DNA of 64,000 nucleotides from Pecten maximus (taxonomy: Eukaryota). The position numbers and the translations under genes were made by a program. The notes under the pieces are model-generated. The model saw only the letters and a list, made by a program, of their open reading frames with translations. It was not told the origin of the DNA and ran no database searches. Of this stretch, positions 1,905 through 59,335 are shown piece after piece (the stretch's first letter is position 1; each line of letters starts with the position of its first letter). The stretch is taken from positions 2,480,001 to 2,544,000 of the forward strand of contig NC_047016.1 of assembly GCF_902652985.1 (NCBI RefSeq). Reading direction: 5' to 3'.

Positions 1905-4900
1905 GTTGACTGATCCTTACCTCCAAACACTATATCGGGGACGTTGACTGTTACTTACCCCCAAACACTATATAGGGGACGTTGGACTGATCCTTACCCC
2001 CAAACACTATATCGGGGATGTTGACTGTTCCTTACCTCCAAACACTATATCGGGGACGTTGACTGTTCCTTACCTCCAAACACTATATCGGGGATGTTGA
2101 CTGGTCCTTACCTCCAAACACTATATCGGGGACGTTGACTGTTACTTACCTCCAAACACTATATCGGGGACGTTGACTGTTACTTACCTCCAAACACTAT
2201 ATCGGGAGACGTTGACTGTTCCTTACCTCCAAACACTATATCGGGGATGTTGACTGGTCCTTACCTCCAAACACTATATCGGGGATGTTGACTGTTCCTT
2301 ACCTCCAAACACTATATCGGGGACGTTGACTGTTCCTTACCTCCAAACACTATATCGGGGATGTTGACTGTTCCTTACCTCCAAACACTATATCGGGGAC
2401 GTTGACTGTTACTTACCTCCAAACACTATATCGGGACGTTGACTGTTCCTTACCTCCAAACACTATATCGGGGACGTTGACTGTTCCTTACCTCCAAACA
2501 CTATATCGGGGACGTTGACTGTTACTTACCTCCAAACACTATATCGGGGATGTTGACTGTTACTTACCTCCAAACACTATATCGGGGATGTTGACTGTTA
2601 CTTACCTCCAAACACTATATCGGGGACGTTGACTGTTCCTTACCTCCAAACACTATATCGGGGATGTTGACTGGTACTTACCTCCAAACACTATATCGGG
2701 GACGTTGACTGTTCCTTACCTCCAAACACTATATCGGGGACGTTGACTGTTCCTTACCTCCAAACACTATATCGGGGATGTTACTGTTACTTACCTCCAA
2801 ACACTATATCGGGGATGTTGACTGTTCCTTACCTCCAAACACTATATCGGGGACGTTGACTGTTCCTTACCTCCAAACACTATATCGGGGACGTTCACTG
2901 TTCCTTACCTCCAAACACTATATCGGGGACGTTGACTGTTCCTTACCTCCAAACACTATATCGGGGACGTTGACTGGTCCTTACCCCCAAACACTATATC
3001 GGGGATGTTGACTGTTACTTACCTCCAAACACTATATCGGGGACGTTGACTGTTCCTTACCTCCAAACACTATATCGGGGATGTTGACTGTTCCTTACCT
3101 CCAAACACTATATCGGGGACGTTGACTGTTCCTTACCCCCCAAACACTATATCGGGGATGTTGACTGTTCCTTACCTCCAAACACTATATCGGGGATGTT
3201 GACTGTTCCTTACCTCCAAACACTATATCGGGGATGTTGACTGTTCCTTACCTCCAAACACTATATCGGGGACGTTGACTGTTCCTTACCTCCAAACACT
3301 ATATCGGGGATGTTGACTGTTCCTTACCTCCAAACACTATATCGGGGACGTTGACTGTTACTTACCTCCAAACACTATATCGGGGACGTTGACTGTTCCT
3401 TACCTCCAAACACTATATCGGGGACGTTGACTGTTCCTTACCTCCAAACACTATATCGGGGACGTTGACTGTTCCTTACCTCCAAACACTATATCGGGGA
3501 CGTTGACTGTTCCTTACCTCCAAACACTATATCGGGGACGTTGACTGTTCCTTACCTCCAAACACTATATCGGGGACGTTGACTGTTCCTTACCTCCAAA
3601 CACTATATCGGGGACGTTGACTGTTCCTTACCTCCAAACACTATATCGGGGACGTTGACTGTTCCTTACCTCCAAACACTATATCGGGGACGTTGACTGT
3701 TCCTTACCTCCAAACACTATATCGGGGACGTTGACTGTTCCTTACCTCCAAACACTATATCGGGGACGTTGACTGTTCCTTACCTCCAAACACTATATCG
3801 GGGACGTTGACTGTTCCTTACCTCCAAACACTATATCGGGGACGTTGACTGTTCCTTACCTCCAAACACTATATCGGGGACGTTGACTGTTCCTTACCTC
3901 CAAACACTATATCGGGGACGTTGACTGTTCCTTACCTCCAAACACTATATCGGGGACGTTGACTGTTCCTTACCTCCAAACACTATATCGGGGACGTTGA
4001 CTGTTCCTTACCTCCAAACACTATATCGGGGACGTTGACTGTTCCTTACCTCCAAACACTATATCGGGGACGTTGACTGTTCCTTACCTCCAAACACTAT
4101 ATCGGGGACGTTGACTGTTCCTTACCTCCAAACACTATATCGGGGACGTTGACTGTTCCTTACCTCCAAACACTATATCGGGGACGTTGACTGTTCCTTA
4201 CCTCCAAACACTATATCGGGGACGTTGACTGTTCCTTACCTCCAAACACTATATCGGGGACGTTGACTGTTCCTTACCTCCAAACACTATATCGGGGATG
4301 TTGACTGTTCCTTACCTCCAAACACTATATCGGGGACGTTGACTGTTCCTTACCTCCAAACACTATATCGGGGATGTTGACTGTTCCTTACCTCCAAACA
4401 CTATATCGGGGACGTTGACTGTTCCTTACCTCCAAACACTATATCGGGGGGGACTGTCTCTCCAACACTATATCGGGGACGTTGACTGTTCCTTACCTCC
4501 AAACACTATATCGGGGACTGTTGACTGTTCCTTACCTCCAAACACTATATCGGGGACGTTGACTGTTCCTTACCTCCAAACACTATATCGGGGACGTTGA
4601 CTGTTCCTTACCTCCAAACACTATATCGGGGACGTTGACTGTTCCTTACCTCCAAACACTATATCGGGGACGTTGACTGTTCCTTACCTCCAAACACTAT
4701 ATCGGGGACGTTGACTGTTCCTTACCTCCAAACACTATATCGGGGATGTTGACTGTTCCTTACCTCCAAACACTATATCGGGGACGTTGACTGTTCCTTA
4801 CCTCCAAACACTATATCGGGGACGTTGACTGTTCCTTACCTCCAAACACTATATCGGGGACTGTTGACTGTTCCTTACCTCCAAACACTATATCGGGGAT

Positions 4901-6540
4901 GTTGACTGTTCCTTACCTCCAAACACTATATCGGGGACGTTGACTGTTCCTTACCTCCAAACACTATATCGGGGATGTTGACTGTTCCTTACCTCCAAAC
5001 ACTATATCGGGGATGTTGACTGTTCCTTACCTCCAAACACTATATCGGGGACGTTGACTGGTCCTTACCTCCAAACACTATATCGGGGATGTTGACTGGT
5101 CCTTACCTCCAAACACTATATCGGGGATGTTGACTGTTCCTTACCTCCAAACACTATATCGGGGATGTTGACTGTTCCTTACCTCCAAACACTATATCGG
5201 GGACGTTGACTGTTCCTTACCTCCAAACACTATATCGGGGACGTTGACTGTTCCTTACCTCCAAACACTATATCGGGGACGTTGACCAGTCCTTACCTCC
5301 AAACACTATATCGGGGACGTTGACTGTTCCTTACCTCCAAACACTATATCGGGGACGTTGACTGGTCCTTACCTCCAAACACTATATCGGGGACGTTGAC
5401 TGTTCCTTACCTCCAAACACTATATCGGGGACGTTGACTGTTCCTTACCTCCAAACACTATATCGGGGATGTTGACTGTTCCTTACCTCCAAACACTATA
5501 TCGGGGACGTTGACTGTTCCTTACCTCCAAACACTATATCGGGGACGTTGACTGTTCCTTACCTCCAAACACTATATCGGGGACGTTGACTGTTCCTTAC
5601 CTCCAAAACACTATATCGGGGATGTTGACTGTTACTTACCTCCAAACACTATATCGGGGACGTTGACTGTTCCTTACCTCCAAACACTATATCGGGGATG
5701 TTGACTGGTCCTTACCTCCAAACACTATATCGGGGATGTTGACTGTTCCTTACCTCCAAACACTATATCGGGGACGTTGACTGTTCCTTACCTCCAAACA
5801 CTATATCGGGGACGTTGACTGTTCCTTACCTCCAAACACTATATCGGGGACGTTGACTGTTCCTTACCTCCAAACACTATATCGGGGACGTTGACTGTCC
5901 TTACCTCCAAACACTATATCGGGGACGTTGACTGTTCCTTACCTCCAAACACTATATCGGGGATGTTGACTGTTACTTACCTCCAAACACTATATCGGGG
6001 ACGTTGACTGTTCCTTACCTCCAAACACTATATCGGGGACGTTGACTGTTCCTTACCTCCAAACACTATATCGGGGATGTTGACTGTTCCTTACCTCCAA
6101 ACACTATATCGGGGACGTTGACTGTTCCTTACCTCCAAACACTATATCGGGGACGTTGACCGGTCCTTACCTCCAAACACTATATCGGGGACGTTGACTG
6201 TTCCTTACCTCCAAACACTATATCGGGGATGTTGACTGGTCCTTACCTCCAAACACTATATCGGGGACGTTGACTGTTACTTACCTCCAAACACTATATC
6301 GGGGATGTTGACTGTTCCTTACCTCCAAACACTATATCGGGGATGTTGACTGGTCCTTACCTCCAAACACTATATCGGGGATGTTGACTGTTCCTTACCT
6401 CCAAACACTATATCGGGGACGTTGACTGTTCCTTACCTCCAAACACTATATCGGGGACGTTGACTGTTCCTTACCTCCAAACACTATATCGGGGATGTTG
6501 ACTGTTCCTTACCTCCAAACACTATATCGGGGACGTTGAC
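1905..6540. repeat. 38 bp minisatellite, ~120 copies; the unit is the last 27 nt of exon 6513-6700 plus the donor and first 11 intron nt
   Basis: Unit GTTGACTGTTCCTTACCTCCAAACACTATATCGGGGAC; the last copy runs directly into the coding exon. Confidence 0.97.
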
Positions 6541-6700
6541 CGGAAAGTTCTCGTTACAGAGTTGCTGTTCTGGTCTACAGTTCCAGGAAATACAACAGTC
6601 GTAACAGACAGTCCCGGCCGGAGGGTGGGCGTTCCGACAAACTGGGTTACTGACACTGCTGAGGGCGATATTGGCGCGACACTCTGCTTCACTGGCATAC
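6513..6700 (-). CDS. Exon encoding the C-terminal half of a Cys-rich Ly6/uPAR (three-finger)-like domain; phase 2-1
   Basis: tcactatcAG|G...GGAG|GTAAGG. Translates YASEAECRANIALSSVSNPVCRNAHPPAGTVCYDCCISWNCRPEQQLCNENFPVNVPDIVFG, with a CxxCC...CN terminal motif. Confidence 0.8.
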
Positions 6701-7267: not shown

Positions 7268-7489
7268 CTGCAAAGAAAAACGAGATATTTTATCTAAGAT
7301 CAAAGGAAAAAGATTGGGATCAATTAAAAAGAGCTTAGCTACATACAAATGCTCTCAAGAACAGTGAAACATAACTAATGAAGATTATTTTGGAAAAGTT
7401 GGGGAATAGGAAAAACTAACATCTTTCCTGATTACACAAAGCTAGGGATACTATTGTATCCTTCGACCAATTAAAAACAAGGAAACCCG

Positions 7490-8630
7490 GAACCATCATA
7501 CAAGGTTACCTGTTTCAATAATACCGTATTAATATAAACAAGGGGACCCACTACCATCATACAAGGTAACCTGTTACAATAATACCGTATTTATATAAAC
7601 AAGGGGACCCACTACTATCATACAAGGTTACCTGTGACAATAATACCGTATTTAAATAAACAAGGGGACCCACTACTATCATACAATGTAACCTGTTACA
7701 ATAATACCGTATTTATATAAACAAGGGAACCCACTACCATCATACACGGTAACCTGTAACAATAATACCGTATTTATATAAACAAGGGAACCCACTACCA
7801 TCATACAAGGTAACCTGTTACAATAATACCGTATTTATATAAACAAGGGAACCCACTACCATCATACAAGGTAACCTGTTACAATAATACCGTATTTATA
7901 TAAACAAGGGAACCCACTACCATCATACAAGGTAACCTGTAACAATAATACCGTATTTATATAAACAAGGGAACCCACTACCATCATACACGGTAACCTG
8001 TTACAATAATACCGTATTTATATAAACAAGGGGACCCACTACTATCATACAAGGTAATCTGTTACAATAATACCGTATTTATATAAACAAGGGGACCCAC
8101 TACCATCATACACGGTAACCTGTTACTATAATACCGTATTTATATAAACAAGGGAACCCACTGCCATCATACAAGGTAACCTGTAACAATAATACCGTAT
8201 TTATATAAACAAGGGGACCCACTACCATCATACAAGGTAACCTGTTACAATAATACCGTATTTATATAAACAAGGGAACCCACTACCATCATACAAGGTA
8301 ACCTGTAACAATAATACCGTATTTATACAAACAAGGGAACCCACTACCATCATACACGGTAACCTGTAACAATAATACCGTATTTATATAAACAAGGGGA
8401 CCCACTACTATCATACACTGTAACCTGTAACAATAATACCGTATTTATATAAACAAGGGAACCCACTACCATCATACACGGTAACCTGTAACAATAATAC
8501 CGTATTTATATAAACAAGGGGACCCACTACTATCATACAAGGTAACCTGTTACAATAATACCGTATTTATATAAACAAGGGGACCCATTACCATCACACA
8601 CGGTAACCTGTTACTATAATACCGTATTTA
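7490..8630. repeat. 60 bp minisatellite, ~19 copies
   Basis: Unit AAGGGGACCCACTACCATCATACAAGGTAACCTGTTACAATAATACCGTATTTATATAAAC. Confidence 0.95.
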
Positions 8631-8664
8631 TTCAAACGCCTTGGCAGGTGGACCTGATACTTAC

Positions 8665-9137: not shown

Positions 9138-9748
9138 TACAACATGTTACACAATGAACACACTCAGACCCCATACAACATGTTACACAATGAACACACT
9201 CAGACCCCATACAACATGTTACACAATGAACACACTCAGAGACCCCATACAACATGTTACACAATGAACACACTCAGAGACCCCATACAACATGTTACAC
9301 AATGAACACACTCAGAGACCCCATACAACATGTTACACAATGAACACACTCAGAGACCCCATACAACATGTTACACAATGAACACACTCAGAGACCCCAT
9401 ACAACATGTTACACAATGAACACACTCAGAGACCCCATACAACATGTTACACAATGAACACACTCAGAGACCCCATACAACATGTTACACAATGAACACA
9501 CTCAGAGACCCCATACAACATGTTACACAATGAACACACTCAGAGACCCCATACAACATGTTACACAATGAACACACTCAGAGACCCCATACAACATGTT
9601 ACACAATGAACACACTCAGAGATCCCATACAACATGTTACACAATGAACACACTCAGAGACCCCATACAACATGTTACACAATGAACACACTCAGAGACC
9701 CCATACAACATGTTACACAATGAACACACTCAGAGATCCCATACAACA
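9138..9748. repeat. 36-38 bp minisatellite, ~16 copies
   Basis: Unit CCCATACAACATGTTACACAATGAACACACTCAGAGAC. Confidence 0.95.
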
Positions 9749-45844: not shown

Positions 45845-46541
45845 AAAAACTTAAATTTGGTAGAAAGAAATGTCAAAATCTGGACAGACAGCCGCTACGC
45901 TACACTGATGACGTGATCGATGTAGCGTAGTGCAATCAACCGTGGATACCGACAATGGACTTAGAGGTGCAAACGATACTTGATGGAATTTTTAACAGGT
46001 AGATGAGACAAACGTGGCTCTTAATTAAGCGTTACGGTGCACGTTAGATCTAATACAACCGAGATACTTCATTATTTCAGATGTTACAGCATTGTTTCCC
46101 AATGAACATTAAAAAAATCAAGTACAACACTATCACGAGAACAAGTGGTGATTATTAACCATATAATCAGGGACGTATAATATAATATACACATTTGGTG
46201 GCTTAGCGCGCTTTTACATTCTTTTAAAGTTTCAGTGACAGTATATGAGAACCCCATTCATTGTTCCGCGTACACACGTATTAGTAAGTACTATATACAT
46301 AATGTATGGTGTCAGTATACTTGTGTGGTAGGTGATAGTTATGTAAGCCAGCTCGTATTCTTAACGGCACCGACTGTCTTGTCTGACACCCATCCCAGGA
46401 TAAAAGAACTCTCCACCACAGACGTTTGACGTCCGCTATTAATTTACGGGGCGTTTTAGTCGGAATCTTCGTACACATAAAGCATGTAACACGGTGTCGC
46501 CTGTCGTCCACTCTGTGGTCAGTCAGAATTACACCTAGGGG

Positions 46542-46579
46542 TATAAACCTTATAGGCCACGGCTCCTCTCACCTTCAGT
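46542..46579 (+). promoter_or_regulatory. TATA box plus Inr-like TCAGT of the WAP-domain gene
   Basis: TATAAA at 46542, TCAGT at 46575 and ATG at 46592. Confidence 0.5.
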
Positions 46580-46591
46580 GCCGACTTCAAC

Positions 46592-46618
46592 ATGGATCGT
46601 CATCGCCTCGTCCTCTCC
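46592..46618 (+). CDS. Exon 1 of the secreted WAP-domain protein (MDRHRLVLS)
   Basis: caacATGG context and phase-0 donor |GTAAGT. Joined to exon 2 it gives the signal peptide MDRHRLVLSICVYLGVVVSA. Confidence 0.8.
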
Positions 46619-47249
46619 GTAAGTCTGATTATTTACATTTCAAACTAATTATCCAGTAGAGTGATGAAAGTGACAATGTTTTAAATGTTTTCACTGTTTC
46701 TTTGAAGGTTTCCCCACAGCTTTCAGCGTGTTTGATACCGAATACATGTATCTTCTCTATTGGTTATTTATATGTCAATTGACACAATATTTGTATATTT
46801 TAGACATCGCAGTTAAACATAGTATTAGTTATTTTCGTATTGTTCTAAATAATTAACACGTTTGAATGAAAAACACCAAATATTTATGTCAAAACTATTC
46901 TCAATAAAAAAACTGAATTGACCTCTGGAAGTATTCGTCGTCAGTTTGACCGTCAAAAAGTTATTCATCATTCTGAAAACATGAAATTAAAGTAAGTTCC
47001 ATAAATTGATCATTGATGACGTTTCTCGCATTCAATAACGACGTCATTAGTTTTCTGTTTGACTTCCCTTTTCTTTGTAGAAACCTAATGTTATCTTAAA
47101 GTGATACTTCGCCAACAGCCTATGCACACTAGTACTGCTGCCAGTCGCAAAATTAATCATAAAATGACACCAATAGTATAAATTATCTACTTAACATTAA
47201 CAAATAAAAAAAAAAAAAACACAACGAAAAAAATCGTCATTTAAAGAGA

Positions 47250-47905
47250 CAAGTAGGAGAGTAGTATGAGAGAAGTACGAGAGGAGTACGATAGGTTTAC
47301 GAGAGGAGTACGAGAAGAATAGGAGAGAAGTACGAGAGAAGGAGAAGAGGAGTATGAGAGAAGTATGAGAGAAGTACAAGAGGTTAAGGAGAGAAGTACG
47401 AGAGGAGTATGACAGAAGTACGAGAGGAGTATGACAGAAGTACGAGAGGAGTATGACAGAAGTACGAGAAAAGAACGAGAGGAGTATGAGAGAAGTATGA
47501 GAGAAGTATGACAGAAGTACGAGAAAAGAACGAGAGGAGTATGACAGAAGTACGAGAAAAGAACGAGAGGAGTATGAGAGAAGTATGAGAGAAGTATGAC
47601 AGAAGTACGAGAAAAGAACGAGAGGAGTATGACAGAAGTACGAGAAAAGAACGAAAGGAGTATGAGAGGAGTATGACAGAAGTATGACAGAAGTACGAGA
47701 AAAGAACGAGAGGAGTATGACAGAAGTACGAGAAAAGAACGAGAGGAGTATGACAGAAGTATGACAGAAGTACGAGAAAAGAACGAGAGGAGTATGAGAG
47801 GAGTACGAGAAGAGTATGAGAGGAGTACGAGAAGAGTATGAGAGGAGTATGACAGAAGTACGAGAAAAGAACGAGAGGAGTAGGAGAGGAGTACGAGAAG
47901 AGTAT
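47250..47905. repeat. Purine-rich compound repeat built from ~11-12 bp subunits
   Basis: GAGAGGAGTAT / GACAGAAGTAC / GAGAAAAGAAC mosaics. Confidence 0.9.
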
Positions 47906-48144
47906 ATACATAAAGAGAAATTTTCATTGAATGTATTTACAAAAAATCATCGAAACATTGTCTATACATTGTCATTTATAAGTGTTATGTGTCACATATA
48001 AATATATCTTAATTAAGTGTAAAGCTTTAGGCATACTCTAATATTGTTTTTACACTTTATGCGCAAATTCATACATATAAAGTGTATACGTAATGTTTAT
48101 GGTGTTATTGTACCGAATGCTTTGTATATATACAACATGTATTT

Positions 48145-48272
48145 GCTTGGTTCTGGCCATAAGCCGATGGTTTTTCTCCGGGTACTCTGGTGTTTCCTCC
48201 ACCTCTAAATCCTGGCTCGTTCTAAATGACTCTGGCTGTTAACTGGGCGTTAAACAAAATAAACCAAACAAT
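48145..48272 (+). mobile_element. SINE fragment with a V-domain-like core
   Basis: GGTTTTTCTCCGGGTACTCTGGTGTTTCCTCCACC core, then GGCGTTAAAC and an A-rich tail. Confidence 0.65.
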
Positions 48273-48454
48273 ACATTTTGGAGGCAATACAGAGAATACA
48301 ATAAACAATACAACAATAATAAAACTAGACAACAGTCTATACTTAGTTTCAATCAATTATAATTACTGATTAATAATAAGATTTACCATCTTGGACATTT
48401 AGCGGTCAATATAACAGTGATGTTGAGGGTGGACATAAGCCTCCTTTATCGTCG

Positions 48455-49091
48455 TCAGTGTGATATAAAGTCTTGTTCCTTACAGATCTTGTCGTGGTCA
48501 GTGTGATATAAAGTCTTGTTCCTTACAGATCTTGTCACGGTCAGTGTGATATAAAGTCTTGTTCCTTACAGATCTTGTCACGGTCAGTGTGATCTAAAGT
48601 CTAGTTCCTTACAGATCTTGTCACGGTCAGTGTGATATAAAGTCTTGTTCCTTACAGATCTTGTCACGGTCAGTGTGATATAAAGTCTTGTTCCTTACAG
48701 ATCTTGTCACGGTCAGTGTGATATAAATTCTTGTTCCTGACAGATCTTGTCGTGGTCAGTGTGATATAAAGTCTTGTTCCTTACAGATCTTGTCGCGATC
48801 AGTGTGATATAAAGTCTTGTTCCTTACAGATCTTGTCGCGATCAGTGTGATATAAAGTCTTGTTCCTTACAGATCTTGTCGCGATCAGTGTGATATAAAG
48901 TCTTGTTCCTTACAGATCTTGTCACGGTCAGTGTGATATAAAGTCTTGTTCCTTACAGATCTTGTCGCGATCAATGTGATATAAAGTCTTGTTCCTTACA
49001 GATCTTGTCGCGATCAGTGTGATATAAAGTCTTGTTCCTTACAGATCTTGTCGCGATCAGTGTGATATAAAGTCTTGTTCCTTACAGATCT
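48455..49091 (+). repeat. 43 bp minisatellite, 15 copies, each carrying the exon-2 splice acceptor
   Basis: Unit GTCAGTGTGATATAAAGTCTTGTTCCTTACAGATCTTGTCACG; the last TTACAG|ATCT opens exon 49088-49238. Confidence 0.95.
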
Positions 49092-49238
49092 GTGTTTATC
49101 TGGGTGTGGTGGTGTCTGCTAACAACTCCCTGTTTCGATACACACCCACCAACCCGACTGCACCACTGACTGCTGAGGGCCAAATAAGTACATCCAGGGG
49201 CGTCCAACCAAACGATATCACCGACACCCGTAATAGAG
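49088..49238 (+). CDS. Exon 2 of the secreted WAP-domain protein; phase 0-1
   Basis: cttacAG|ATC...AGAG|GTGAGG. Translates ICVYLGVVVSANNSLFRYTPTNPTAPLTAEGQISTSRGVQPNDITDTRNR. Confidence 0.85.
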
Positions 49239-49514
49239 GTGAGGCATCAATTCCCTAAGTGGCATACATAATGTTAATCATACAGGCCAATGACACTCAT
49301 GTTACCTACTTTGTAAAATTGATAGAATTACATGCAATTTTTTATACGAGAAATGTCAAATAATTTCAAGATATAGTAAAACGTAAATTAATCAACTGCC
49401 TATGAAAAAGCCCGCATTTCATTCAGAAAGAATTCATACACTTGACGTCTCGTGCGGCCATTACATTCAATATATAATGTGTAAATAGTTTGCTCCATCA
49501 TTCATTAACTTATT

Positions 49515-51440
49515 CTGTGTATGTACCGACACCAGTCCAAACATTAACATACGTCTGTGTACTGACACCAGTCCAAACATTAACATACGTCTGTGTACTG
49601 ACACCAGTCCAAACATTAACATACGTCTGTGTACTGACACCAGTCCAAACATTAACATACGTCTGTATATGTACTGGCACCAGTCCAAACATTAACACAC
49701 GTCTGTGTATGTACCGACACCAGTCCAAACATTAACATACGTCTGTGTATGTACTGACACCAGTCCAAACATTAACATACGTCTGTGTACTGACACCAGT
49801 CCAAACATTAACATACGTCTGTGTATATACTGACACCAGTCCAAACATTAACATACGTCTGTGTAGTGATACCAGTCCAAACATTAACATACGCCTGTGT
49901 ATGTACTGACACCAGTCCAAACATTAACATACGTCTGTGTATGTACTGACACCAGTCCCAACATTGACATACGTCTGTATATGTACTGACACCAGTCCAA
50001 ACATTAACACACGTCTGTGTACTGACACCAGTCCAAACATTAACATACGTCTGTGTACTGACACCAGTCCAAACATTAACACACGTCTGTGTATGTACCG
50101 ACACCAGTCCAAATATTAACATACGTCTGTGTACTGACACCAGTCCAAACATTAACATACGTCTGTGTACTGACACCAGTCCAAACATTAACACACGTCT
50201 GTGTACTGACACCAGTCCAAACATTAACACACGTCTGTGTACTGACACCAGTCCAAACATTAACACACGTCTGTGTACTGACACCAGTCCAAACATTAAC
50301 ACACGTCTGTGTACTGACACCAGTCCAAACATTAACATACGTCTGTGTACTGACACCAGTCCAAACATTAACATGTGTCTGTGTATGTACTGACACCAGT
50401 CCAAACATTAGCATACGTCTGTGTACTGACACCAGTCCAAACATTAACATACGTCTGTGTACTGACACCAGTCCAAACATTGACATACGTCTGTATATGT
50501 ACTGACACCAGTCAAAACATTAACATACGTCTGTGTACTGACACCAGTCCAAACATTCACATACGTCTGTGTACTGACACCAGTCCAAACATTAACATAC
50601 GTCTGTGTACTGACACCAGTCCAAACATTAACATACGTCTGTGTATGTACTGACACCAGTCCAAACATTAACATACGTCTGTGTACTGACACCAGTCCAA
50701 ACATTAACATACGTCTGTGTACTGACACCAGTCCAAACATTAACATACGTCTGTGTATGTACCGACACCAGTCCAAACATTAACATACGTCTGTGTACTG
50801 ACACCAGTCCAAACATTAACATACGTCTGTGTACTGACACCAGTCCAAACATTAACATACGTCTGTGTATGTACCGACACCAGTCCAAACATTAACATAC
50901 GTCTGTGTACTGACACCAGTCCAAACATTAACATACGTCTGTATATGTACTGACACCAGTCCAAACATTAACATACGTCTGTGTACTGACACCAGTCCAA
51001 ACATTAACATACGTCTGTATATGTACTGGCACCAGTCCAAACATTAACACACGTCTGTGTATGTACCGACACCAGTCCAAACATTAACATACGTCTGTGT
51101 ACTGACACCAGTCCAAACATTAACATACGTCTGTATATGTACTGGCACCAGTCCAAACATTAACACACGTCTGTGTATGTACCGACACCAGTCCAACTTA
51201 ACATACGTCTGTGTACTGACACAGTCAACATACGTCTGTATATGTACTGACACCAGTCCAAACATTAACATACGTCTGTGTACTGACATCAGTCCAAACA
51301 TTAACATACGTCTGTATATGTACTGACACCAGTCCAAACATTAACATACGTCTGTATATGTACTGACACCAGTCCAAACATTAACATACGTCTGTATATG
51401 TACTGACACCAGTCCAAACATTAACATATGTCTGTGTACT
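49515..51440. repeat. 36/40 bp minisatellite, ~50 copies, in intron 2
   Basis: Unit ACTGACACCAGTCCAAACATTAACATACGTCTGTGT(ATGT). Confidence 0.96.
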
Positions 51441-51638
51441 GTAACAAGCTTGTGTGTGTATGATCTGAAGACGCAATGATTAAAGAGTCTGGTTAGTCTG
51501 AATGATTCCGAATATCTAGATAACTGATACCGTTACCTAAACACCTTTAGAAAAGTGGACAGATTGTTAATTAAAAATGCTGGCATAATATATTCTTTTA
51601 ATTGTGACTCACTATCTCATTGTCCTTGCTTCATGTAG

Positions 51639-52495
51639 GTAAACTGGTGATAGTCGACACGAACAGCACCACGCCACAGGACATCACCGCGGTGAAGGCA
51701 GGGGGAGACAATATTGTCGTCACCGTGGAAACCGGGCCGAACGCCACACCCTCACCACCGGCTCAGACAAGAACGACCGACTGGAATTGGATAGTCACTC
51801 CAGCTCCCAAAGCAACGCCCTCACCACCACCACCACAAACCGGAACCACCGACTGGAATTGGATTGTCACGCCGACTCCCAAAACCACGCCCTCGCCAGC
51901 GGCACAAACCAGACCGACTGATTGGAATTGGATTGTCACCCCGACCCCCAAAACCACGCCCTCGCCGGCGGCACAAACCGGACCGACTGATTGGAATTTG
52001 ATTGTCAACCCGACCCCCAAAACCACGCCCTCGCCGCCGACACAGACAAGATCGTCTGACTGGAACTGGATAGTCACACCTACTCCAAGAGCCCCTGTTC
52101 ACTACACTCCGGCACCATACGTCCAATACGCGGCAACAACTGCCCCGAATCCTTTCTTATATGGATATACAAACACAATGGGTTATTTCGGAAATACTCC
52201 GGGCTACTTTGGAACACCTTCGTATTGGGAAATCGCATATCAACAACCACAGCAAACAACGGCAGACCCAGGTATCAAATACGGACAATGTCCCGCCCCG
52301 AACGTAGTTGGCGCGAAATGTGGTCACCGGTGTTACCGGGACACGGAATGTCCCCAGGACTGGAAATGTTGTAACGACGGATCAGGCAGGCAAGATGGCT
52401 GCTGTCACGCTCGTAGACCAACGGAAGTAGAAAGCTTTATGACGTCTCTGTGGGACATGCCTCCATCACAAGAAATACAGAATGAAATGCCGTGA
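51639..52495 (+). CDS. Exon 3 of the secreted protein: five DWNWIVTP/Pro-Thr repeats, a Tyr/Gly-rich linker and a variant WAP (four-disulfide core) domain; 344 aa in total
   Basis: catgtAG|GT in phase 1; KYGQCP..CGHRCYRDTECPQDWKCC..GCC; AATAAA at 52883. Confidence 0.9.
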
Positions 52496-57992: not shown

Positions 57993-58610
57993 TCTAAGGC
58001 TATGTGTTATGCTGAGAGGGCATAGCTAAGGCTATGTGTGAGGATGTGAGGGCATCTCTAAGGCTCTGTGTGAGGATGTGAGGGCATCTCTAAGGCTATG
58101 TGTGAGGATGTGAGGGCATAGCTAAGGCTCTGTGTGAGGATGTGATGGCATCTCTAAGGCTCTGTGTGAGGATGTGAGGGCATAGCTAAGGCTCTGTGTG
58201 AGGATGTGATGGCATCGCTAAGGCTCTGTGTGATGATGTGAGGGCATCAGTAAGGCTCTGTGTGATGATGTGAGGGCATCGCTAAGGCTCTGTGTGATGA
58301 TGTGAGGGCATCAGTAAGGCTCTGTGTGATGATGCGAAGGCATCTCTTTAAGGCTCTGTGTGAGGATGTGAGGGCATGGCTAAGGCTCTGTGTGATGATG
58401 TGAGGGCATCGCTAAGGCTCTGTGTGATGATGTGAGGGCATCAGTAAGGCTCTGTGTGATGATGCGAGGGCATCTCTTTAAGGCTCTGTGTGAGGATGTG
58501 AGGGCATCAGTAAGGCTCTGTGTGATGATGTGAGGGCATCGCTAAGGCTCTGTGTGATGATGTGAGGGCATCTCTTAGGCTATGTGTGATGATTTGAGGG
58601 CATTGCTAAG
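57993..58610. repeat. 32 bp minisatellite in a GGCT-like intron
   Basis: Unit TAAGGCTCTGTGTGAGGATGTGAGGGCATCGC. Confidence 0.93.
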
Positions 58611-58668
58611 AGTATGGATGAGGGTATGTGTGTGTGTGAGGATGTATAAATGGATATGTGTGATATAC

Positions 58669-58795: not shown

Positions 58796-58879
58796 CTACA
58801 AAAATAAAACAGTTCAACAGATCAAAGCTGTGATATTTAATTTATGAGAGTACAATACAGAATATCTTCATTTGTTCAT

Positions 58880-59335
58880 ATTTACCTGTATGCAGAATTT
58901 ACCTTTACATAGTTTACCTGTATGTATAGCTTACCTGTATGTAGAATTGATCTTTATATAGAGGTTACTCGTGTATTTAGTTTACCTGTATGTATAGCTT
59001 ACCTGTATGTAGAATTGACCTATATATAGAGGTTACTTGAATGTTTAGGTTGCCTGTATGTAGAATTGATCTTTATATAGAGGTTACTCGTGTATTTAGT
59101 TTACCTGTATGTATAACTTACCTGTATGTAGAATTGACCTTTATATAGAGGTTACTTGTGTATTTAGTTTACCTGTATGTAGAATTGACCTTTATATAGA
59201 GGTTACTTGTGTATTTAGTTTATCTGTATGTAGAATTGACCTTTATATAGAGGTTACTTGTGTATTCAGTTTACCTGTATGTAGAATTGACCTTCATATA
59301 GAGGTTACTTGTGTATTTAGTTTACCTGTATGTAT
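58880..59335. repeat. ~51 bp minisatellite in a GGCT-like intron
   Basis: Unit AGTTTACCTGTATGTAGAATTGACCTTTATATAGAGGTTACTTGTGTATTT. Confidence 0.9.

What the first reader, a model, noticed from the sequence alone, without database searches (positions are those of the whole stretch)
48455..49091. Mirror case: 15 tandem copies of a splice acceptor in front of a real exon
Seen: TCTTGTTCC(T/TG)ACAG|ATCT recurs at exact 43 bp spacing (48485 to 49087), and only the last copy opens the coding exon that completes the signal peptide. Use of an earlier AG reads ATC TTG TCx xGx TCA GTG TGA and stops almost immediately. The proximal pyrimidine tract and AG context are essentially the same in all copies, so the choice must depend on exon definition from the downstream donor (inference).
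Basis: partly seen in the sequence, partly recalled or inferred. Interest (0 to 1): 0.7.

Follow-up and report, generated by a model that had tools for sequence, protein, structure and literature searches.

The report
Scallop splice-acceptor "mirage" minisatellite
The end of an intron in a scallop gene for a likely secreted protein has been copied 15 times in a row, splice signal included, and the one spliced transcript recovered uses only the last copy; such repeats are known from lancelets and are common in this genome, so this one is likely harmless clutter.

Summary
Confirmed. Fifteen AG|ATCT acceptors sit at exact 43-bp spacing (48485-49087) at the end of intron 1 of a three-exon king-scallop gene encoding a 344-aa signal-peptide/Thr-Pro-repeat/WAP protein. 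One contig in 1 of 7 runs laid joins exon 1 (46618) to the 15th AG; none enters at an earlier AG. Thirteen of 15 acceptors score identically and earlier ones stop at codon 16.

This is a 'mirage' minisatellite, described in amphioxus, including an acceptor-side case (BflGb6, PMC3087553). The scan has noted the kind before on other DNA (48 notes, at least 12 genomes).

New here is a base rate. Of 532 homology-called dynein introns in this genome, 15 acceptors (2.8%) and 21 donors (3.9%) carry two or more intact decoys, about what local repeat density predicts (13.6-17 per side). So it is ordinary for this genome.

The last copy likely wins because it alone is followed by real exon sequence. Exon size alone does not explain the choice, and masking by NMD is not excluded. 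One post-hoc hint: acceptor arrays carry less exon sequence than donor arrays, possibly from selection.

The parts
46441..46618 (+). Exon 1 as covered by the RNA contig (true start not shown); ATG at 46592, 9 codons, phase-0 donor GT at 46619
   Evidence: this donor is weak, 2nd percentile of 262 scallop donors
46619..49087 (+). Intron 1, 2469 nt; holds a purine-rich 11-bp array (47246-47898) and the acceptor array
48454..49091 (+). 43-bp mirage minisatellite, 14.8 copies; unit is mostly intron end (candidate branch point near -23, pyrimidine tract, CAG) plus the first 4 exon bases
   Evidence: branch point inferred by eye from the recalled mammalian consensus; the 14 genome matches of the unit all lie in this array
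48484..49044 (+). 14 decoy acceptors (AG ending 48485 to 49044), each leading to a stop at codon 16
   Evidence: no contig seen entering at any of them
49086..49087 (+). Authentic acceptor AG (copy 15)
   Evidence: X1 contig joins 46618 to 49088
49088..49238 (+). Exon 2, 151 nt; encodes the rest of the predicted signal peptide and the start of the mature protein; donor GT at 49239
   Evidence: signal peptide judged by eye from the hydrophobic core kept in orthologs, no predictor run
49503..51443 (+). 36/40-bp minisatellite filling most of intron 2; does not touch a splice site
51639..52495 (+). Exon 3 coding part: Thr/Pro-rich Trp repeat (69-bp unit, 51744-52077) and WAP four-disulfide domain
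   Evidence: (PF00095, E 5.8e-06, above cut-off)

Best explanation
This is a locus-specific 43-bp minisatellite made of the gene's own intron-1/exon-2 junction, giving 14 decoy acceptors ahead of the real one; the spliced contig uses the last copy, which likely wins because only it is followed by true exon sequence, and the array is likely a tolerated by-product of a repeat-prone genome rather than a regulator. Steps: (1) a short segment spanning the AG was duplicated in place and expanded by slippage or unequal exchange (inferred from locus-specificity and blocks of identical neighbouring units); (2) any such duplication leaves the intact exon behind the last copy (follows from the geometry); (3) factors bound on exon 2 and U1 at its donor would favour the nearest upstream 3' splice site, while decoys carry only 4 exon bases (inferred from mammalian work); (4) rare mis-spliced RNAs would stop at codon 16 and make no protein (stop shown, their frequency and fate not shown).
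For: Unit found only in this array (14 of 14 genome matches; that search skips very common words). Junction 46618-49088 in a 1176-nt contig of depth 138.9 with no branch; unit-only 73-nt contigs at depth 6.71, 4.05 and 5.18 in X1, X2, X4. Equal acceptor scores and accessibility rule out a local sequence or folding cause. Survey: 15 of 532 acceptors and 21 of 532 donors carry two or more decoys; 16 and 24 arrays reach the junction against 13.6-17.0 expected per side. In human extract, duplicated beta-globin 3' sites with 14, 55 or 205 exon bases behind the upstream copy spliced only to the downstream copy (PMC5389562, passages). Amphioxus mirages are reported not to disturb splicing (PMC3087553, PMC3902484, passages).
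Against: The junction rests on one contig in 1 of 7 runs laid; the runs are only guessed to be RNA, and contigs drop rare forms. Steady-state RNA cannot separate accurate choice from decay of wrong products. The mechanism is borrowed from mammals; in PMC5389562 splicing was very inefficient and the reported dependence on exon length was not reproduced. Copy number in the sampled animals is unknown, because the contigs collapse the array. The survey covers one gene family, and its introns are called by homology, not by RNA.
Confidence: 0.72

Rival explanations
1. Leaky choice hidden by decay: upstream AGs are used often, since they are transcribed first and are equally strong, but the products stop at codon 16 and are degraded, so copy number would act as a dimmer on expression.
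For: All 14 decoys give a premature stop two junctions upstream of the last exon. 13 of 15 sites score the same. Contigs cannot show rare or unstable forms (tool caveat).
Against: Unit-bearing contigs are at most about 5% (X1) and 2% (X2) of the mRNA contig depth even if each molecule held one unit, and intron-containing RNA or DNA explains them (depth is a poor measure). In human beta-globin, stops close to the AUG escape NMD (PMC4513866, PMC3273812, abstract openings only), so a codon-16 stop might leave such RNAs visible; untested in scallop. A stop is expected anyway: the nearest decoy gives a stop or frameshift in 14 of 15 surveyed acceptor arrays by my reading, and 43 is not a multiple of 3.
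Confidence: 0.17
2. Splice junctions are preferred sites of tandem duplication (a splicing- or transcription-linked mutational process), so the array marks a special mechanism of origin.
For: 24 donor-spanning arrays against 13.6-17.0 expected (Poisson p 0.007 or 0.063 by null). A second, 122-copy donor array lies in this window. Seven acceptor-side arrays end within 0-2 nt of the AG.
Against: Acceptor-spanning arrays are at expectation (16 against 13.6-17.0). Tandem repeats cover 25.7% of the 1.4 Mb surveyed, and 187 arrays lie in 153 of 532 introns, mostly away from junctions.
Confidence: 0.08
3. Assembly artefact: the array is inflated or invented by the assembly.
For: Parts of the window look unpolished or duplicated (about 62.2-64 kb). 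Copy number was not checked against DNA reads.
Against: Head-to-tail unit contigs occur in 3 of 4 runs laid on the unit (X1, X2, X4, one study). X1 differs from the window at exonic positions, so it likely comes from another animal or allele. Units carry distinct variants in blocks.
Confidence: 0.03

Closest known systems
Amphioxus 'mirage' minisatellites: globins BflGb6 and BflGb9, Adh3, troponin C, PGBD5 (PMC3087553 and PMC3902484, passages read; the Adh3 and troponin C originals not read)
   Same: Tandem copies of an intron/exon boundary that keep the splice signal, with normal splicing. BflGb6 is acceptor-side like this one (3' end of the intron plus 5' part of exon 2). Unit size lies within the 10-160 bp reported.
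   Different: Mollusc, not lancelet. 15 copies against 6 and 3 in BflGb6 haplotypes. Only 4 exon bases in a 43-bp unit, against 150-160 bp units there. Length polymorphism not tested here.
Human F7 intron 7 37-bp VNTR (PMC1557585; abstract and Discussion read)
   Same: Identical, functional splice sites in a minisatellite; only the exon-adjacent one is used; choice depends on position, not sequence.
   Different: Donor side, where the used site is transcribed first and a 5'-to-3' scan explains it. Here the used site is transcribed last, so that scan cannot explain it.
Human ABCA7 intron 18 25-bp VNTR (PMC5954066; passages read)
   Same: Minisatellite that includes a splice site; use of a neighbouring unit gives a frameshift and premature stop.
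   Different: Donor side. Decoy use and a length effect on splicing are shown there and not here.
Engineered duplicated 3' splice sites of beta-globin (PMC5389562, passages; Reed and Maniatis 1986 seen only as cited there)
   Same: Upstream copy with a short piece of exon behind it, downstream copy with the full exon; the downstream copy was used.
   Different: Two copies, in vitro, human extract, inefficient splicing; the dependence on exon length was not reproduced in that paper.

Membership tests
Mirage minisatellite (as described in PMC3087553) | Head-to-tail repeat whose unit spans an exon-intron boundary of the host gene | tested here: met
   Array 48454-49091 crosses the used junction at 49087/49088 by 4 nt
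Mirage minisatellite (as described in PMC3087553) | Minisatellite-sized unit (10-160 bp in the described cases) | tested here: met
   43 bp (range)
Mirage minisatellite (as described in PMC3087553) | Many copies keep the AG or GT signal | tested here: met
   15 of 15 keep CAG; 13 of 15 score identically
Mirage minisatellite (as described in PMC3087553) | Main transcript is spliced at the authentic site | tested here: met
   X1 contig, 1 of 7 runs laid; rare forms cannot be seen
Mirage minisatellite (as described in PMC3087553) | Length instability between alleles or cells | not testable with these tools
   Only contigs were offered and they collapse the array to a 73-nt circle
Mirage minisatellite (as described in PMC3087553) | Concerted turnover inside the cluster | tested here: met
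   Variants come in neighbouring blocks (units 3-7, 9-11, 13-15); mean pairwise difference 2.0 of 43 nt among units 2-15
Regulated unproductive splicing (AS-NMD) element | Stop-bearing isoform is actually made | tested here: inconclusive
   No contig enters at AG1-14, but contigs drop rare forms
Regulated unproductive splicing (AS-NMD) element | Element conserved in related species | not testable with these tools
   Only ortholog proteins were obtained; no relative genomes are held for this window
Dispersed satellite or transposon-derived repeat | Unit occurs at other loci | tested here: not met
   14 of 14 genome matches are inside this array (the search skips very common words)
NAGNAG-type tandem acceptor (definition recalled) | Alternative AGs a few bases apart that share one branch point and tract | tested here: not met
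   AGs are 43 nt apart and each has its own tract

The most novel reading that the evidence does not exclude
About 3% of scallop acceptors sit behind ladders of their own copies, and selection shapes which ladders survive: acceptor arrays keep little exon sequence (mean 0.25 of the unit, against 0.49-0.50 for donor arrays and 0.5 under neutrality), because decoys followed by enough exon get used. Scallop mirages would then be a genome-wide natural allelic series showing that exon sequence, not order of transcription, picks the 3' splice site in an invertebrate, with copy number acting as a heritable dimmer at some genes.
Probability: 0.25. Interest if true: 0.55.

Novelty: new member of a known kind. 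Interest (0 to 1): 0.25.

Why it matters
As a single locus it matters little: the kind is published and this gene appears to be spliced correctly. It is a clean test substrate, with 13 identical strong acceptors of which the last-transcribed is used, which a first-come scan cannot explain. The base rate measured here (36 of 1064 surveyed splice sites with two or more decoys) shows such arrays are routine in this genome. That matters for gene annotation and read mapping, and it turns 'what picks among identical 3' splice sites in an invertebrate' into a question that can be counted genome-wide.

Tried and rejected
1. Donor:acceptor asymmetry. The first sample (262 introns, 11 regions) gave 17 donor to 4 acceptor arrays, suggesting selection against acceptor arrays. 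The larger sample (532 introns, 18 regions, which includes the first) gave 21 to 15, binomial p 0.41. Rejected.

2. Exon-size ceiling as the selector: 168 of 455 called internal exons are 194 nt or longer (some may hide missed introns). Rejected for the nearest decoys.

3. Folding that hides the decoys: no difference in predicted accessibility.

4. Stop after each decoy as a designed feature: the unit is not a multiple of 3, and period-multiple-of-3 shows no clear bias (3 of 16 acceptor, 8 of 24 donor, 61 of 187 all arrays).

5. Purine-rich enhancer motifs (recalled, mammalian) in exon 2: none found by a simple count. A/C-rich words occur in exon 2 and not in the unit; too crude to count as evidence.

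6. No listed holder is on record as RNA. Runs X3, X5, X16 gave nothing on exon 1 and X6 nothing on exon 2; this is no evidence of absence.

7. Literature: search 'mirages, amphioxus, splice' gave 3 papers; 'minisatellite, scallop, intron, exon-intron boundar' gave 1, on an abalone kinase gene, listing only; searches gave no mollusc case. No scallop mirage paper or genome-wide count was found in this library, which lacks most subscription journals. No supplements were read.

Full report
Observation. The sequence and a parse show 15 copies of ACAG|ATCT with the AG ending at 48485 + 43k up to 49087. TRF reports period 43, 14.8 copies, 96% matches, no indels. Units 2-15 differ by 2.0 of 43 nt on average, with variants in neighbouring blocks. 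A genome search with the last unit plus exon 2 gave 14 matches, all in this array, so the unit appears to be local; that search skips very common words.

Host gene. Three coding exons (46592-46618, 49088-49238, 51639-52495) give 344 aa, identical to NCBI protein P0002 labelled Pecten maximus. The search found 4 proteins among 4806 candidates, the three named ones all scallops, at 63-72% identity for the non-self hits. The protein has a hydrophobic N-terminus split across exons 1 and 2 (signal peptide judged by eye, kept in two orthologs), a Thr/Pro-rich Trp repeat and a WAP domain. The NCBI names differ between orthologs and likely reflect low-complexity matches.

Which acceptor is used. No run was on record as RNA; 7 different runs were laid as contigs. 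On exon 1, 1 of 4 runs (X1) had a contig: it covers 46441-46618 and continues with the first 30 bases of exon 2. On one unit plus exon 2, the same 1176-nt contig (depth 138.9) enters at 49088 from exon 1 and leaves to exon 3; X2 shows the exon 2/3 junction (depth 214.9); X1, X2 and X4 each hold a 73-nt unit-only contig at depth 6.71, 4.05 and 5.18; X6 had nothing. No contig joins exon 1 to an earlier AG. The main form therefore uses copy 15, and a tandem array exists in three samples of one study. Contigs drop rare forms and hide copy number, so decoy use is bounded only loosely (about 5% and 2% of mRNA depth at most, on a poor measure).

Are the decoys real competitors? A weight matrix from 262 scallop acceptors scores 13 of 15 copies, the real one included, at 11.76 bits (88th percentile); copies 4 and 7 score 9.2 and 10.65. 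Predicted accessibility is the same for all. All 14 decoys stop at codon 16. The two nearest would give exons of 194 and 237 nt, sizes reached by 168 and 85 of 455 called internal exons. So neither local sequence, folding nor exon size picks the site. What is unique to copy 15 is the exon behind it: the decoys carry only 4 exon bases.

How common is this? I located dynein heavy chain genes, fetched 18 regions (1.4 Mb; one near-duplicate on contig C29 left out), and called introns by tblastn with 79 database dyneins plus junction scoring. Of 652 called introns, 532 were kept (3 or more votes and more than rival calls) and 120 dropped. Tandem repeats cover 25.7% of the sequence. 187 arrays lie in 153 of the 532 introns; 24 reach a donor and 16 an acceptor; 21 donors (3.9%, 95% interval 2.5-6.0) and 15 acceptors (2.8%, 1.6-4.6) carry two or more intact decoys. 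Two simple nulls based on array density and period expect 13.6 and 17.0 per side. Acceptor arrays are at expectation; donor arrays are at most mildly above it (p 0.007 or 0.063). An early 17:4 asymmetry did not survive the larger sample (21:15, p 0.41). These introns are homology-called, a few may be off by one unit, and one gene family may not represent the genome.

A post-hoc hint. Acceptor-spanning units contain less exon than donor-spanning units: mean share 0.25 against 0.49-0.50 (Mann-Whitney p 0.004-0.006; acceptors differ from uniform, p 0.004; donors do not, p 0.9). In absolute bases the medians are 9 and 20 (p 0.06), and without the zero cases the shares are 0.33 and 0.51 (p 0.04). 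This array (4 of 43) fits the pattern. It could reflect selection against decoys followed by exon sequence, or drift of units away from the exon, or bias in my calls; n is 16 and 24 and the test was chosen after seeing the data.

Mechanism. Shown: the array, its local origin as far as can show, the equal strength of the copies, the stops, and use of the last AG in the main transcript. Inferred: birth by local duplication and expansion; choice of the last AG through exon-bound factors and the exon-2 donor; no regulatory role. Outside support: duplicated beta-globin 3' sites with 14, 55 or 205 exon bases behind the upstream copy spliced only to the downstream site in human extract, though inefficiently and without the reported length effect (PMC5389562, passages). 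The main rival is leaky choice hidden by decay. Against it, human AUG-proximal stops can escape NMD (PMC4513866, PMC3273812, abstract openings), but this is untested in scallop.

Known kind. led to the human F7 VNTR (PMC1557585; abstract and Discussion) and to ABCA7 (PMC5954066; passages), both donor-side. I then read the passages in PMC3087553, where BflGb6 has tandem copies of an intron 3' end plus the start of exon 2 with normal splicing, and in PMC3902484. This array meets the tested features of that kind; length polymorphism could not be tested. The scan holds 48 notes with these words in at least 12 genomes (unchecked AI notes), several acceptor-side and much larger, and three donor or junction cases in this genome. 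I found no scallop paper on the kind in this library.

Verdict. Real, correctly described, and a new member of a known kind that is ordinary for this genome. Interest 0.25. The part worth pursuing is the genome-wide count and the exon-share asymmetry, not this locus alone.

Noticed in passing
window 1905-6540 (minus strand): 38-bp array, 122 copies, built from the end of an exon (about 6541-6700) and its donor; 118 copies match the donor motif. The donor-side counterpart of this finding; not checked against RNA.
   Followed up: partly
window 48497-48927: 8 of units 2-15 hold a donor-like GT 11 nt after the decoy AG (27th-36th percentile), which could define 11-nt micro-exons. The other 6, including the three nearest the exon, lack it through a one-base difference. 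May be drift.
   Followed up: partly
window 48445-48450 and 49095-49100: A 6-bp direct repeat (TTTATC) brackets the array and could mark a microhomology-bounded founder segment of 48 bp; the present unit is 43 bp, so the fit is imperfect and chance is possible.
   Followed up: no
window 51639-52495: The host protein has a Trp-containing Thr/Pro repeat, a WAP domain and an invariant 11-residue C-terminus in all 4 proteins found; function not studied, NCBI names inconsistent.
   Followed up: partly
window 7475-8631, 9138-9748, 57994-58623, 58873-59334: Several arrays begin about 20-45 nt inside an intron next to an apparent minus-strand donor (read by eye). In the dynein survey arrays within 1-100 nt are 47 donor-side and 38 acceptor-side.
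   Followed up: partly
window about 22.5-23.8 kb and 33.3-34.3 kb (+): Two long open frames with similar N-termini, by eye likely paralogous single-coding-exon genes of unknown function.
   Followed up: no
window about 62.2-64 kb: Homopolymer-rich, apparently unpolished sequence followed by a near-copy of pieces of 59.8-61.9 kb; possible assembly artefact.
   Followed up: no
G000:C19 dynein gene, 228001-288000 (L052-L055, L114-L115): One gene region holds 5 acceptor-spanning and 3 donor-spanning arrays among 49 called introns, including an 81-copy acceptor array that ends exactly at the AG.
   Followed up: partly
G000:C29:13544-17514 and G000:C13:6825370-6834083: Dynein exons with identical scores on a small contig and a chromosome-scale one; likely an unmerged haplotype.
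   Followed up: no
window about 10.0-11.3 kb, 15.8-16.4 kb and 24.9-27.5 kb: Decayed frames that by eye resemble retroelement fragments (recalled resemblance, no search run).
   Followed up: no
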